Positions 20,965 through 36,981 of a stretch of 64,000 nucleotides of DNA are shown here, piece after piece. A program made the translations under genes and the position numbers. Numbering within the stretch: the stretch's first letter is position 1; each line of letters starts with the position of its first letter. The notes below the pieces were generated by a model that was not told where the DNA came from, did not search any database, and was given only the letters and a program-made list of their open reading frames with translations. Origin of the DNA: Clostridia bacterium (GTDB lineage: Bacteria > Bacillota > Clostridia > UMGS1883 > UMGS1540); the NCBI GenBank assembly GCA_045535515.1, contig JAZSLT010000016.1, positions 11,598-75,597 of the forward strand, written 5' to 3'.

Positions 20965-20993
20965 TTGAAAAAATACACATATTGCGGTATAAT
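20965..20993 (+). promoter_or_regulatory. sigma-A promoter reading into hairpin-array element A
   Basis: TTGAAA (20965-70), 17 nt, TATAAT (20988-93). Confidence 0.55.
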
Positions 20994-21010: not shown

Positions 21011-21160
21011 AAAATCGTCGATATGAATCCTTGCCAGAATTCTCGATATGTCGCTAATGCGACGAGAATTCATATCATATCGAGTTCGACCAAAGGAAAA
21101 ACATATCGATTTTGCGACAGCAAAAATATTGAGCAAACGAAGGGTGCATATCGACATAGT
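21011..21160 (+). repeat. hairpin-array element copy A (TCGATATG/CATATCGA motifs interleaved with short hairpins); candidate structured RNA or 5' leader
   Basis: Two forward TCGATATG units (21018, 21043), each followed by a short stem-loop, then three reverse CATATCGA-type units. Same architecture as the elements at 33.4-33.8 kb and 36.5 kb. Confidence 0.6.
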
Positions 21161-33346: not shown

Positions 33347-33375
33347 TTGACTATTTTTCGTATGTATGCTATAAT
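33347..33375 (+). promoter_or_regulatory. sigma-A promoter reading into hairpin-array element B
   Basis: TTGACT (33347-52), 17 nt, TATAAT (33370-75). An 11-bp perfect hairpin starts 1 nt later. Confidence 0.6.
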
Positions 33376-33840
33376 GAATTTAATTGCAAAGCAATTAAAT
33401 TCAGCGATATAAATTCCTTACGGAATTTGCGATATGTACTTCGTACGCGATATATCTTCGATGCGATATGTCCCTTCGGGACGAGAAATAGGAATTTATA
33501 TCATATCGCAACGGAATGAAATGGAGTTATATCGCATTTGAACGGAGAGAAAATATATCGCACGAGCGTGAGCGAGTATATCGCCAAAAAGTTGGCATCT
33601 AAATTGTGCACGAATTCTATAATGATTTCATCTTTGATGAAATCAGCGATATAAATCTCTTGCGAGATTTTCGATATGTCACAAGTGACCCGATATGTGC
33701 TAACGCACTCGATATGTTGCCCACAGGCAACGAGATTTATATCATATCGAGTTTTGAGCGAAGCGAAAAACATATCGATTTTACGAAAGTAAAAATATCG
33801 AGCAATCGTAGATTGCATATCGACAAAACAGGCTGCATCT
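33376..33840 (+). repeat. hairpin-array element copies B1 and B2 (tandem, about 242-bp period); candidate structured RNA or long 5' leader of czcD
   Basis: B1 (about 33376-33600) uses GCGATAT(G)/ATATCGC motifs. B2 (about 33640-33840) uses TCGATATG/CATATCGA. Both open with (a)TCAGCGATATAAA plus a hairpin and contain ATATCATATCG at mid-element. Confidence 0.6.
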
Positions 33841-33891
33841 TTTCTATCACCTAATTCTATACCGGAACAAATGACCGGGAGGAGGGTTTTT

Positions 33892-34785
33892 ATGCAATCC
33901 GATAAAAAAATACGCGCGGCGTTCTTTTTAAATCTCATGTTTTCTATTATAGAATGTGTGGGTGGCCTTTGGACAGGAAGTGTGGCCATTCTTTCCGATG
34001 CCCTGCATGATTTTGGGGACAGTATCAGCATTGGCATTTCCTACTTTCTGGAAAAGACGAGCCAAAAGGAGCCGGATAATCAGCACACCTACGGATACAG
34101 GCGGTACAGCGTGTTGGGCAGCGTGATTACCACGGTAATTTTACTCTTTGGCTCGCTGGCGGTATTGTATCATGCCGTACCGAGAATTTTTCGTCCTGTG
34201 CCGGTAAACTACGACGGTGTCCTGGCGTTGGCGGTAATGGGCGTGCTTATCAATTTTTTGGCCGCCTATTTTACTAAAGAGAAGGACTCCTTAAACCAAA
34301 GAGCCGTCAATCTCCACATGCTGGAGGATGTTCTGGGCTGGCTGGCCGTTTTGGTCGGGGCCGTTTGTATGAAAATCTGGGATGCGCCCTGGATAGACCC
34401 GCTTTTATCGGCGGGTGTGGCCGTCTTTATTTTCGTGCATGCCGCGAAAACCTTAAAAAGTGCCATAGATATCTTCCTCGAAAAAACGCCGGCCAATATA
34501 AGCGCGGCCAAAATCCGGGAAATTGCTCTCGGGGTAGACGGCGTTTTGGATGCGCACCATATCCACATCCGCACGCTGGACGGGTATCTGCATTATGCCA
34601 CTCTGCATGTGGTGACGGATGCGGCGCCGAAAGAAATAAAGCACAGAATCAAGGAGGCGCTCTCTGCATGCGGCATCTCCCACACGACCATCGAGATAGA
34701 AACGAGCGAGGAAGGGTGCGACGATGTTTTCTGTAAAACCGACACTTCCCGACCGCATCACGAACACCACCACCATCATCACTAA
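33892..34785 (+). CDS. czcD: cation diffusion facilitator family transporter (CzcD-like) with His-rich C-terminus
   Basis: 6-TM CDF fold, HDxxD-type motifs (LHDFGDS) and C-terminal HHEHHHHHH. ATG at 33892 lies 8 nt after GGAGG. Confidence 0.8.
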   Translation: MQSDKKIRAAFFLNLMFSIIECVGGLWTGSVAILSDALHDFGDSISIGISYFLEKTSQKEPDNQHTYGYRRYSVLGSVITTVILLFGSLAVLYHAVPRIFRPVPVNYDGVLALAVMGVLINFLAAYFTKEKDSLNQRAVNLHMLEDVLGWLAVLVGAVCMKIWDAPWIDPLLSAGVAVFIFVHAAKTLKSAIDIFLEKTPANISAAKIREIALGVDGVLDAHHIHIRTLDGYLHYATLHVVTDAAPKEIKHRIKEALSACGISHTTIEIETSEEGCDDVFCKTDTSRPHHEHHHHHH

Positions 34786-36420: not shown

Positions 36421-36463
36421 CGGAAAAGAGACATTTTTCTTTGACGAAAAATGTCTCTTTTCT
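36421..36463 (+). terminator. intrinsic terminator after the GH32-like gene
   Basis: AAAGAGACATTTTT...AAAAATGTCTCTTT stem followed by a T-run. Confidence 0.7.
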
Positions 36464-36489
36464 GGCTTTCGGCTACATAATAGATGCAA

Positions 36490-36675
36490 GTTATTTTTTC
36501 GATATGCAATCTTCGATTGCTCGATATTTTTGTTATCACAAAATCGATATAATCTCACTTCGTTCGATTGAGATATGATATAAATCTCGTTGCCGTAAGG
36601 CAACATATCGTGTGCACCAGCACATATCGAGTTAATTTTAACATATCGAAAATCTCGACAGAGATTTATATCGAT
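36490..36675 (+). repeat. hairpin-array element copy C (stand-alone, between two terminators)
   Basis: TCGATATG at 36498, then TCGATAT x2 with hairpins, then ATATCG(A) x4 in the opposite orientation. Confidence 0.55.
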
Positions 36676-36712
36676 GAAAAAACGACTTGTCGGAAAACAA
36701 GTCGTTTTTTCT
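36676..36712. terminator. bidirectional terminator downstream of tRNA-Leu
   Basis: ACGACTTGT...ACAAGTCGT stem flanked by an A-run and a T-run. Confidence 0.7.
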
Positions 36713-36798
36713 GGTGCTCGAGACCGGAATCGAACCGGTACGGGATTGCTCCCACGGGATTTTAAGTCCCGGGCGTCTGCCAGTTCCGCCACTCGAGC
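36712..36798 (-). tRNA. tRNA-Leu (anticodon UAA), type II with long variable arm
   Basis: Reverse complement folds as GCTCGAG acceptor, anticodon stem CGGGA/TCCCG with loop CTTAAAA, long variable arm, T-loop TTCGATT and 3' CCA. Confidence 0.85.
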
Positions 36799-36981
36799 TT
36801 TTCAAAACACATATATTTTAGCACATTATTTTCCGCTTGTCAATGCTTTTTTCGCAAAAAGGAAACTCTTTCGGGAGAGACTATTGCTTTTTGGAGAAAA
36901 ATATGGTACAATGACAAAAGGTAGCAGGAAAGTACCCTGTGCGTATGGGGACAGAAAAATTATGCAAAAGAGGAATGAGAC

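What the first reader, a model, noticed from the sequence alone, without database searches (positions are those of the whole stretch)
36421..36712. Stand-alone hairpin-array element copy C bracketed by two intrinsic terminators next to tRNA-Leu
Between the GH32-like gene terminator (36421-36463) and the bidirectional terminator that also serves tRNA-Leu (36676-36712) lie about 190 bp with the same grammar as elements A and B. TCGATATG plus hairpin (caatcttcgattg, a UUCG loop) is followed by TCGATAT plus hairpin twice, then ATGATATAAATCTC plus the hairpin gttgccgtaaggcaac (GNRA loop), then four ATATCG(A) units in opposite orientation separated by the hairpins tgtgcaccagcaca and aaatctcgacagagattt. 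It has no downstream ORF, so a copy that can only be an independent RNA gene, or a non-coding DNA site, exists. Adjacency to a tRNA gene is typical of small structured RNA genes and of integration hotspots. The promoter here is weak or unclear; TACATAAT at 36474-36481 is the best -10 candidate.
Basis: seen in the sequence. Interest (0 to 1): 0.7.

Follow-up and report, generated by a model that had tools for sequence, protein, structure and literature searches.

The report
Gut-1-like hairpin-ladder RNA after tRNA-Leu
The stretch is an intact copy, on the opposite strand to the one proposed, of a roughly 185-base multi-hairpin element that uncultured gut Clostridia carry in several copies; it is a divergent relative of the orphan Gut-1 RNA family, whose function is still unknown.

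Summary
The hairpin array at 36495-36711 is real and far beyond chance. It is one of four copies in the window: A 21016-21158, B0 33402-33588, B 33644-33827 and C.

A covariance model built only from copies in other genomes scores C at 181 bits on the minus strand and 67 bits on the plus strand. C therefore reads in the same direction as tRNA-Leu and lies 35 nt downstream of it. The "bidirectional terminator" at 36676-36711 occupies the position of the family's conserved 5' hairpin, P0. The hairpin at 36423-36462 is C's likely 3' terminator.

The layout is fixed:
- P0, then four UCGAUAU units separated by hairpins.
- A centre piece.
- Four AUAUCGA units separated by hairpins.

The hairpins covary strongly, and a long-range helix competes with the first hairpin.

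True Gut-1 loci (Rfam RF01706) have the same full layout and are hit by my model. No window copy reaches Rfam's threshold, and the Rfam model covers only the 5' half.

My best reading is a stable structured small RNA, a new variant of Gut-1. It would fold as a four-rung ladder of four-way junctions that can open to expose its heptamers to an unidentified partner.

No expression data were available. Several statistics show no strand bias, so a DNA-level role is not excluded.

The parts
36815..36843 (-). Promoter of tRNA-Leu (TTGACA-17-TAAAAT with an upstream TG). It is the only strong promoter that could feed copy C.
   Evidence: 11 of 12 consensus matches, minus strand.
36712..36798 (-). tRNA-Leu(UAA), with the CCA end encoded.
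   Evidence: ARAGORN; Rfam tRNA 54.4 bits.
36676..36711 (-). P0, a 16-bp A-tract/stem/U-tract hairpin. It looks like the terminator of tRNA-Leu and occupies the position of the family's conserved 5' hairpin. It ends 2 nt before unit 1 (TCGATAT).
   Evidence: Fold. A P0 hairpin is present in 34 of 40 family members, mean dG -14.2 against -5.6 kcal/mol for control windows. The same tRNA-P0-element layout occurs in L061 and L053 and in Gut-1 seed BAAZ01025322.
36495..36676 (-). Copy C, a full-length element covering model positions 1-185.
   Evidence: 181.1 bits, E 4.5e-39 on the minus strand, from a model trained without window sequences. All 38 model base pairs are standard pairs in C.
36643..36674 (-). 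Unit 1 (36668-36674), then P1 hairpin AAAUCUC-UGUC-GAGAUUU (36650-36667), then unit 2 (36643-36649).
   Evidence: Sequence and alignment. P1 covaries: 6 of 7 pairs change on both sides across the family.
36589..36642 (-). hp2 (36631-36642), unit 3 (36624-36630), hp3 (36611-36623), unit 4 ACGAUAU (36605-36611), hp4 GUUGCC-UUAC-GGCAAC (36589-36604).
36577..36588 (-). Centre piece GAGAUUUAUAUC. It is complementary to GAUAU of unit 1 plus X (GAUAUAAAUCUC, 36661-36672) and forms a long-range helix that competes with P1.
   Evidence: RNAalifold chooses this helix. It is 91% paired, and 7 of 12 pairs change on both sides. Its predicted probability in C is 0.42.
36499..36576 (-). The 3' half: degenerate unit 5 AUAUCUC (36570-36576), hp5 (36551-36569), unit 6 (36544-36550), hp6 (36528-36543), unit 7 (36521-36527), hp7 (36506-36520), unit 8 (36499-36505).
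36423..36462 (-). A 17-bp hairpin followed by a U-rich tail. It is the likely 3' terminator of C on the minus strand and also the terminator of the convergent GH32 gene on the plus strand.
   Evidence: terminator-like, minus strand. GH32 is assigned by Pfam.
33644..33827 (+). Copy B, the closest in-window paralog of C (82% identity). It follows a TATAAT box at 33618-33623 and a P0 hairpin, and lies upstream of a CDF cation-efflux gene (33871-34785).
   Evidence: (186.9 bits).
33402..33588 (+). Copy B0, whose units are GCGAUAU / AUAUCGC. Its 5' half is the only window sequence that Rfam's Gut-1 model detects. Its promoter is TTGACT-17-TATAAT at 33347-33375.
   Evidence: 34.6 bits, E 4.5e-5; 123.6 bits.
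21016..21158 (+). Copy A, which lacks units 3-4 and hp3. Its promoter is TTGAAA-17-TATAAT at 20965-20993. It lies upstream of a BspA-type LRR protein gene.
   Evidence: (113.4 bits).

Best explanation
Copy C (36495-36711, minus strand) is an intact member of a multi-copy family of roughly 185-nt structured elements found in gut and rumen Clostridia (Oscillospiraceae, Acutalibacteraceae, Christensenellaceae). The family is a divergent sister of the Rfam Gut-1 RNA.

How it is probably made (inferred). Transcription from the tRNA-Leu promoter runs through, or is processed at, the terminator-like hairpin P0. It ends at the hairpin 36423-36462.

Layout (shown). The RNA has a fixed plan: P0, four UCGAUAU units separated by hairpins, a centre piece, then four AUAUCGA units separated by hairpins.

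Fold (partly shown). Two conserved and mutually exclusive folds exist.
- Closed ladder. P1 forms and each 5' unit pairs with a 3' unit. This gives four identical 7-bp rungs joined by three perfect four-way junctions.
- Open form. Unit 1 plus X pairs with the centre piece, which leaves the other heptamers single-stranded.

Function (inferred). I propose a stable small RNA that works in trans. It would be a compact scaffold that switches between hiding and displaying eight copies of one heptamer to a sequence-specific partner. That partner could be a protein or a nucleic acid and has not been identified. A 23S_rRNA_IVP four-helix-bundle protein is one lead.
For: Identity and strand:
- A model trained on 19 non-window copies gives 181.1 bits on the minus strand and 67.5 on the plus strand.
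- C and B align hairpin by hairpin in opposite orientation.
- The triple X / X' / X' rule also orients C on the minus strand.

Structure under selection:
- 90% of 1302 stem cells are paired.
- 35 of 38 pairs change on both sides.
- 369 cells show a double change against 115 +/- 9 in shuffles. Slid controls pair at 25-48%.
- C against L061, which has the same tRNA-Leu layout: 7 pairs changed on both sides and none broken.

Long-range helix:
- 7 of 12 pairs change on both sides.
- The unit-1 T->G variant is matched by A->C in the centre piece in all four cleanly aligned elements that carry it.

Ladder:
- Predicted probability of the nested rungs is 0.36-0.56, and 0.83-0.97 in B.
- The 5' and 3' units stay reverse complements in three lineages: UCGAUAU/AUAUCGA, GCGAUAU/AUAUCGC, GUGAUAU/AUAUCAC.
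- Permuted copies with the AUAUCGA block first keep the complementarity.

Transcription signals:
- Five promoters of 10-12 of 12 matches lie on the sense strand, with the -10 box ending 23-29 nt before unit 1. Only one lies on the antisense strand.
- By eye, terminators follow at least 15 copies on the sense strand.

Link to Gut-1:
- Loci above Rfam's threshold (75, 62 and 59 bits) are hit over their full length and on the same strand by my model (E 4e-8 to 7e-7).
- Gut-1 seed sequences with flanks show the same 3' half and the same tRNA-hairpin-element layout.
- Weinberg et al. 2010 (PMC2864571) rated Gut-1 as certainly an RNA and not cis-regulatory.
Against: - No expression data exist.
- C has no promoter of its own, and P0 looks like an efficient intrinsic terminator. 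About 30 of 40 family copies likewise lack a recognisable promoter.
- Stem statistics show no strand bias. G.U 18 against A.C 15 among about 1100 stem cells. Spacer folding energies are -774 against -750 kcal/mol on the two strands. Loops are GAA 23 and UUC 16. There is no GNRA or UUCG excess on the sense strand. This is unusual for an RNA.
- Deviations in single units are not compensated in the nested partner, and the unit-1 variant is not compensated in unit 8. The rungs therefore rest on lineage-level complementarity and thermodynamics only.
- Thermodynamics disfavours the long-range helix, with a mean probability of 0.04.
- My crude terminator counter found 19 sense against 15 antisense terminators, which does not discriminate.
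- The partner and the function are entirely inferred.
Confidence: 0.55

Rival explanations
1. A DNA-level element. The quasi-palindrome acts as single-stranded or cruciform DNA, or as an array of 7-bp protein-binding half-sites (halves of the palindrome TCGATATCGA). It could be a selfish or mobilisable repeat, of the REP/BIME or MITE kind, or the structured end of an element that carries an IVP gene. It would tend to sit just after hairpins and terminators.
For: - Stems and loops show no strand bias.
- The architecture is nearly the same on both strands, and Rfam Gut-1 hits the 3' halves on the opposite strand.
- All eight units change together rather than pair by pair.
- Most copies lie right after a gene end or terminator hairpin without their own promoter.
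- 23S_rRNA_IVP genes abut the element in several different genomic contexts, as if a module had moved.
- L031/L058 form a palindrome of several hundred nt with additional 12-nt rungs.
Against: - Double-stranded binding sites do not explain spacers kept as hairpins by hundreds of compensatory changes.
- The window copies are 63-82% identical to each other, and each is at least as close to copies in other species. This points to old paralogs, not a burst.
- The tRNA-Leu/P0/element block is conserved at 85% identity in another species.
- Consensus promoters sit at a fixed distance and in one orientation.
- There is no match in the phage or plasmid collections.
- No transposase or HUH gene was noticed next to any copy, though this was not searched systematically.
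Confidence: 0.2
2. A passive RNA trailer or stabiliser. The hairpin stack has no trans-acting role. It would protect upstream transcripts (tRNA-Leu, or mRNAs) from 3' exonucleases, reinforce termination, or insulate convergent genes.
For: - C lies between two convergent transcription units and between two terminators.
- Many copies follow gene ends.
- The structure is very stable (-75 kcal/mol, z = -8).
Against: - A stabiliser has no need for a fixed 4+4 unit count, identical heptamers, a conserved alternative helix, or position-specific hairpins kept across families.
- About a quarter of the copies have their own promoter and start a transcript.
Confidence: 0.12
3. A plus-strand small RNA starts near TACATAAT (36474-36481) and ends at the terminator 36676-36712.
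For: - On the plus strand the element is followed by a good terminator, and it folds equally well there (-75.7 kcal/mol).
- The GUAA loop is a GNRA loop on this strand.
Against: - The family model prefers the minus strand by 114 bits.
- The promoter-bearing homologs fix the orientation: P0, then P1, then the centre piece.
- The scan finds no promoter of 9 or more matches out of 12 on the plus strand.
Confidence: 0.06
4. A cis-regulatory leader (riboswitch or attenuator), as the positions of A and B upstream of genes might suggest. On this view C would be a relic.
For: - A, B and about 15 other copies lie 12-150 nt upstream of an ORF with a ribosome-binding site.
- Two of these ORFs are CDF transporters.
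- There are two alternative conserved helices.
Against: - The downstream genes are unrelated: LRR surface protein, CDF, IVP, GGDEF-like, C_GCAxxG.
- About half of the copies have no downstream ORF and often run into a terminator.
- C is fully intact, so it is not a relic.
- Weinberg et al. rated Gut-1 as not cis-regulatory.
Confidence: 0.05

Closest known systems
Gut-1 RNA motif (Rfam RF01706; Weinberg et al. 2010, PMC2864571)
   Same: - Same layout: unit, P1 hairpin, then units alternating with hairpins.
- Seed sequences with flanks, and new loci above threshold, also show the centre piece complementary to unit 1 plus X, four reverse-complement units in a 3' half, an upstream hairpin, and in some cases an upstream tRNA.
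- My model hits true Gut-1 loci over their full length.
- Both come from gut bacteria, and neither has a known function.
   Different: - The unit is (U/G)CGAUAU here, against GUGAAAU or GUGAUAU in Gut-1.
- No window copy reaches the gathering score of 50 bits. C and B get no hit at all, and B0 scores 34.6 bits.
- The 77-position Rfam model covers only the 5' half.
- The 2010 description knew no host organism. Here the carriers are Oscillospirales and Christensenellales MAGs.
Protein-sponge small RNAs with repeated motifs (CsrB/RsmZ type; from general knowledge)
   Same: Many copies of one short motif are displayed between or on hairpins in a stable, stand-alone small RNA, often present in several copies per genome.
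   Different: - The number of units is fixed at 4+4.
- Half of the units are the reverse complement of the other half, so the RNA can hide all of its motifs by pairing with itself.
- No binding protein is known.
REP/BIME and other intergenic palindromic repeats (from general knowledge)
   Same: Multi-copy, extragenic hairpin clusters in both orientations, often just after genes and terminators.
   Different: - The copies are diverged, and their hairpins are kept by compensatory change rather than by sequence identity.
- Some copies have dedicated promoters.
- No RAYT-type transposase was seen.
rRNA intervening sequences carrying an S23p/IVP ORF (e.g. Coxiella IVS, PMC4990558, abstract only)
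   Same: A strongly structured RNA element is physically linked to a 23S_rRNA_IVP four-helix-bundle ORF. This holds for 6 of about 33 element-bearing loci.
   Different: - The element is not inside rRNA.
- Most copies, including all four in the window, have no IVP gene nearby.
- No RNase III-type long stem is present.
Large orphan structured RNAs that often lie near tRNA genes (GOLLD, ROOL; from general knowledge)
   Same: An orphan, highly structured RNA of Firmicutes with recurrent adjacency to tRNA genes.
   Different: It is much smaller (185 nt against 500-800 nt), it is repetitive, and it has no Rfam match to those families.

Membership tests
Gut-1 RNA (RF01706) | Scores at or above the Rfam gathering threshold (50 bits) with the family covariance model | tested here: not met
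   C has no Gut-1 hit at E<=10 and B has none. Only the 5' half of B0 scores, at 34.6 bits and E 4.5e-5. Control loci L131 and L211 score 75, 62 and 59 bits.
Gut-1 RNA (RF01706) | Architecture: conserved heptamer, P1 hairpin, then heptamers alternating with short covarying hairpins | tested here: met
   Alignment of B0 to the Rfam consensus. All four window copies align end to end to the family model. The hairpins covary.
Gut-1 RNA (RF01706) | Heptamer sequence GUGAAAU (or GUGAUAU in part of the seed) | tested here: not met
   Units are UCGAUAU in A, B and C, and GCGAUAU in B0.
Gut-1 RNA (RF01706) | Detectable homology to bona fide members | tested here: met
   Model R1 was built from UCGAUAU-type copies. 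It hits L131, L211a and L211b over their full length and on the Gut-1 strand, at E 6.6e-7 to 3.7e-8. Seeds with flanks show the same 3' half.
Intrinsic (rho-independent) terminator pair only | A G+C-rich hairpin followed by a U tract, with nothing conserved in between | tested here: not met
   Both flanking hairpins are terminator-like. The 182 nt between them are a conserved family member.
MITE / REP-like mobile repeat | Near-identical copies within a genome; terminal inverted repeats with target-site duplications; presence/absence polymorphism | tested here: inconclusive
   Window copies are 63-82% identical to each other, and each is at least as close to copies in other species. The tRNA-Leu/P0/element block is conserved in L061. 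Target-site duplications and strain polymorphism were not tested.
Riboswitch / cis-regulatory leader | A constant position upstream of one functional class of genes | tested here: not met
   C has no downstream ORF. Across the family the downstream genes are unrelated, and about half the copies have none.
CRISPR array | Direct repeats of 23-50 nt with unique, non-palindromic spacers, usually with cas genes | tested here: not met
   The repeats are 7 nt and occur in two inverted blocks. The spacers are conserved hairpins.
Type III antitoxin RNA (ToxI-like) | Tandem direct repeats of about 36 nt immediately upstream of an endoribonuclease toxin gene | tested here: not met
   The units are not tandem direct repeats, and no conserved downstream gene exists.
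Csr/Rsm-type protein sponge | A known cognate RNA-binding protein and its motif (e.g. GGA) | not testable with these tools
   The motif is CGAUAU, not GGA. No partner protein can be identified from sequence. The IVP adjacency is only a lead.

The most novel reading that the evidence does not exclude
The family could be a natural RNA ladder. Four identical 7-bp rungs would be joined by three perfect four-way junctions. A conserved competing helix could unzip the ladder and expose eight copies of one heptamer. This would be a self-masking multivalent RNA that works with a dedicated partner, perhaps the 23S_rRNA_IVP four-helix-bundle protein found next to some copies. Alternatively it could move with that gene as a previously unrecognised kind of structured selfish element.
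Probability: 0.2. Interest if true: 0.8.

Novelty: new variant of a known kind. Interest (0 to 1): 0.5.

Why it matters
Gut-1 has been an orphan since 2010. It was known only from human-gut metagenome fragments, only as a 77-nt 5' half, and without a host or a function.

This window and its relatives add four things:
- The element is about twice as long as the Rfam model.
- It has a fixed two-block design with reverse-complement heptamers and a conserved alternative helix.
- It occurs several times per genome in uncultured Oscillospirales and Christensenellales, with four copies in this 64 kb window.
- It appears in three contexts: with its own consensus promoter, after gene ends, and as a trailer of tRNA genes.

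This yields concrete hypotheses that can be tested: which strand is expressed, closed ladder against open form, and IVP as a possible partner. It also yields a better model for annotating gut and rumen genomes.

For copy C specifically, the result corrects the strand and the roles of the two flanking hairpins.

Tried and rejected
1. Wobble test for an RNA strand. G.U 18 against A.C 15 in the stems. Loop types and spacer folding energies are nearly symmetric between strands. The result is inconclusive and is recorded as evidence against a purely RNA-level reading.
2. Pairwise compensation between nested units. Single-unit deviations (TTGATAT, TCAATAT, ATATTGA, ATATCAA) are not matched in their partners. 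The rungs therefore cannot be proven by covariation within this subfamily.
3. Simple terminator counts on the two strands gave 19 against 15, which is not discriminating. I relied on promoters instead.
4. The look-up of the GH32 protein, meant to find the source genome or other strains, found nothing on record.
5. The metagenome scan for the GUGAUAU type returned mostly unrelated tandem repeats. Only L131 and L211 were real.
6. The MAFFT alignment across unit types misaligned the Gut-1 units, so I did not use it for pair counts.
7. Literature searches for Gut-1, RF01706 and the heptamers returned only the 2010 paper.
8. Ideas considered from memory and not supported by any test here: T-loop mimicry (UUCGAUAU), the HUH Rep nick site (CTTGATA), a Spo0A box at the 3' end, parS/NBS half-sites, and an attP arm-site array.
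9. Protein coding was rejected. The ORFs across C (45-65 aa, and a 193-aa ORF that overlaps the tRNA) are incompatible with the hairpin-preserving substitutions and with the indels seen in homologs.

Full report
**Observation**

- a long hairpin at 36423-36462;
- a 16-bp hairpin at 36676-36711;
- between them, three TCGATAT units followed by four ATATCG(A) units, each pair of units separated by a short hairpin.

None of this is chance.
- TCGATAT occurs 24 times in the window against 7.1 +/- 2.7 expected.
- The CGATAT core falls into four clusters: A 21019-21153, B0 33405-33583, B 33647-33822 and C 36500-36673. Each cluster has a block of forward units followed by a block of reverse units.
- Three units with 10-26 nt gaps occur 4 times against 0 in 100 shuffles.
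- The region folds with z = -8.0 on the minus strand and -7.6 on the plus strand.

**Strand and identity**

One genome-collection scan with the triple-unit pattern returned 120 loci. About 45 of them carry the same element, and nearly all of those are gut or rumen Clostridia MAGs: Oscillospiraceae, Acutalibacteraceae, Christensenellaceae, Faecousia.

Once oriented by their asymmetric parts, the copies share a fixed plan:
- hairpin P0;
- unit 1 (CGAUAU);
- hairpin P1, made of X, a loop and X';
- unit 2, hp2, unit 3, hp3, unit 4, hp4;
- a centre piece, X' followed by AUAUC;
- unit 5 (AUAUCGA), hp5, unit 6, hp6, unit 7, hp7, unit 8.

I built a covariance model (R1, 185 positions, 38 pairs) from 19 copies, none from the window. 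On the window it scores:
- B: 186.9 bits on the plus strand.
- C: 181.1 bits on the minus strand, against 67.5 on the plus strand.
- B0: 123.6 bits on the plus strand.
- A: 113.4 bits on the plus strand.
- No other hit with a significant E-value; the only other listed match scores 6.6 bits (E 5.7).

B 33772-33823 and the reverse complement of C 36499-36550 match hairpin by hairpin, with compensatory changes. C therefore reads on the minus strand, the strand of tRNA-Leu (36712-36798), and begins 35 nt downstream of the tRNA.

All 38 model pairs are intact in C. Against L061, 7 pairs differ on both sides and none is broken.

**Flanking signals**

The hairpin at 36676-36711 occupies the position of P0.
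- 34 of 40 family members have a stable hairpin ending within 6 nt of unit 1. Mean dG is -14.2 kcal/mol against -5.6 for control windows.
- In C this hairpin has an A tract, a stem and a U tract. It looks like the terminator of tRNA-Leu, whose promoter (TTGACA-17-TAAAAT) lies at 36843-36815.

The same layout of tRNA, terminator-like P0 and element recurs elsewhere:
- L061: tRNA-Leu, gap 36 nt. The whole block is 85% identical to 36499-36799.
- L053: a five-tRNA operon, gap 31 nt.
- A Gut-1 seed sequence.
- L211: tRNA-Thr and tRNA-Tyr about 270 nt upstream.

Other copies carry a consensus promoter whose -10 box ends 23-29 nt before unit 1. These include window A and B0, and L023, L059 and L090, the last with 12 of 12 matches. 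There are five such promoters on the sense strand and one on the antisense strand. B and three further copies have a TATAAT or TACAAT box at the same place.

By eye, at least 15 copies, C among them (36462-36423), are followed by a terminator on the sense strand. My crude counter did not separate the strands.

About half of the copies have no ORF within 250 nt downstream. The remainder precede unrelated genes.

**Structure**

- Hairpins. On a model-fitted alignment of 36 copies, 90.2% of the 1302 hairpin cells are paired. 35 of 38 pairs change on both sides. 369 cells show a double change against 115 +/- 9 in shuffles. Slid controls pair at 25-48%.
- Long-range helix. A helix between unit 1 plus X and the centre piece is chosen by RNAalifold. 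It is 91% paired, and 7 of its 12 pairs change on both sides. Where unit 1 reads CGAGAU, the centre piece reads AUCUC, while unit 8 stays unchanged. This helix and P1 use the same X, so the two are alternatives.
- Rungs. The four nested unit pairs (1:8, 2:7, 3:6, 4:5) are 96% paired but almost invariant. Support for them comes from thermodynamics and from lineage-level complementarity. The mean predicted probability is 0.36-0.56, and 0.83-0.97 in B. Three lineages keep the two blocks as exact reverse complements: UCGAUAU/AUAUCGA, GCGAUAU/AUAUCGC (B0 and L267) and GUGAUAU/AUAUCAC (Gut-1). Searches show this. Permuted copies also keep it.
- Copy C. Unit 5 is degenerate (AUAUCUC), and the two states are predicted to be mixed: long-range helix 0.42, P1 0.27.
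- Geometry. With no unpaired linker nucleotides, the closed form is a stack of three perfect four-way junctions joined by 7-bp rungs.

**Relation to known families**

The Rfam gathering scan finds only the two tRNAs. In E-value mode the 5' half of B0 hits Gut-1 (RF01706) at 34.6 bits, below the threshold of 50. B and C get no hit.

The Gut-1 seed alignment with flanks (Weinberg et al. 2010, PMC2864571, supplementary file 95) shows that real Gut-1 members continue beyond the 77-nt model. They go on into the same centre piece and four reverse-complement units.

Two metagenome loci score above threshold: L131 at 75 bits and L211 at 62 and 59 bits. R1 hits both over their full length and on the same strand, at E 4e-8 to 7e-7.

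The window copies are therefore a divergent sister of Gut-1, not members by Rfam's own criterion. The 2010 paper rates Gut-1 as certainly an RNA and not cis-regulatory, and reports it from human gut only, with no function. I found no later literature.

**Caveats and rivals**

Three statistics show no strand bias, which is unusual for an RNA:
- G.U 18 against A.C 15 among about 1100 stem cells.
- Spacer folding energies of -774 against -750 kcal/mol on the two strands.
- Loops GAA 23 and UUC 16, with no GNRA or UUCG excess on the sense strand.

In addition, most copies, C included, lack a recognisable promoter, and the units evolve in concert rather than pair by pair. A DNA-level role therefore remains open. 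It could be single-stranded or cruciform DNA, an array of half-sites, or a selfish repeat.

Several results argue against a recent mobile repeat:
- The window copies are 63-82% identical to each other, and each is at least as close to copies in other species.
- There is no match in the phage or plasmid collections.
- Only 3 of 120 viral pattern loci carry a real element.

**Verdict**

The element is a new variant of a known but functionless RNA family. Its architecture is much richer than the current Rfam model shows.

Noticed in passing
window 33402-33588 (+): A fourth copy, B0, lies directly upstream of B in tandem and has its own consensus promoter at 33347-33375. All eight of its units are GCGAUAU/AUAUCGC instead of UCGAUAU/AUAUCGA. 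Its 3' spacers are poor hairpins. It is the only window sequence that Rfam's Gut-1 model detects.
   Followed up: yes
L069 6401-6748, L079 2020-2364, L086 2871-3218, L091 4144-4488, L059 4261-4401, L081 3013-3339: Genes for 23S_rRNA_IVP four-helix-bundle proteins (PF05635, E 1e-19 to 1e-22) start 12-20 nt after the last unit of the element in L069, L079, L086 and L091, which represent at least three different genomic contexts. L059 has a fragment just downstream, and L081 has one about 500 nt upstream. None occurs in the window or in the roughly 315 unrelated loci. This may point to a partner protein or to a co-travelling module.
   Followed up: partly
L105 7791-7933; L031 1134-1724 and L058 1-405; L010, L057, L098; L267 1358-1641: A permuted topology exists: four ATATCGA units with hairpins come first, then four CGATAT units. 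In L031/L058 this core sits inside an imperfect palindrome of several hundred nt that has extra 12-nt complementary motifs (AAATTGTTGTTT / AAACAACAATTT) separated by hairpins.
   Followed up: partly
window 36575-36603 (-) and 33717-33745 (+): hp4 plus the centre piece forms a promoter-like site (TTGCCY-17-TATCAT, 9 of 12 matches) at the same position in both B and C. The same stretch is also flagged as terminator-like. It could be an internal start or stop for a half-length RNA, or a coincidence of the conserved sequence.
   Followed up: no
window 33871-34785 and L049 (ORF 79 nt downstream of the element at 2218-2396): Two elements from different subtypes lie upstream of CDF cation-efflux genes. 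In the window that gene is followed by a GH32 gene with a 15-nt gap.
   Followed up: partly
window 33828-33870; L081 2262-2317: Just downstream of B there is a stretch (gcatcttttctatcacctaattctatacc) that is homologous to the promoter that drives the next tandem copy in L081 (…cacctgattatataatgatttcatc…). It looks like the remnant of a tandem array of promoter-P0-ladder units, possibly reused as the CDF promoter.
   Followed up: no
L069, L079 and L091 (6166-6372), upstream flank: By eye, the element follows the 3' end of an RlmD/TrmA-type RNA m5U methyltransferase gene (C-terminus ...DMFPRTGHVE..). P0 starts just after the stop codon.
   Followed up: no
family-wide (alignment A4): hp5 has a conserved internal motif (GUUU-GA-GC-GAA-GC-GA-AAAC). 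This gives a possible tandem G.A pair flanking a covarying 2-bp stem with a GAA loop. It is the only hairpin with conserved non-Watson-Crick content.
   Followed up: no
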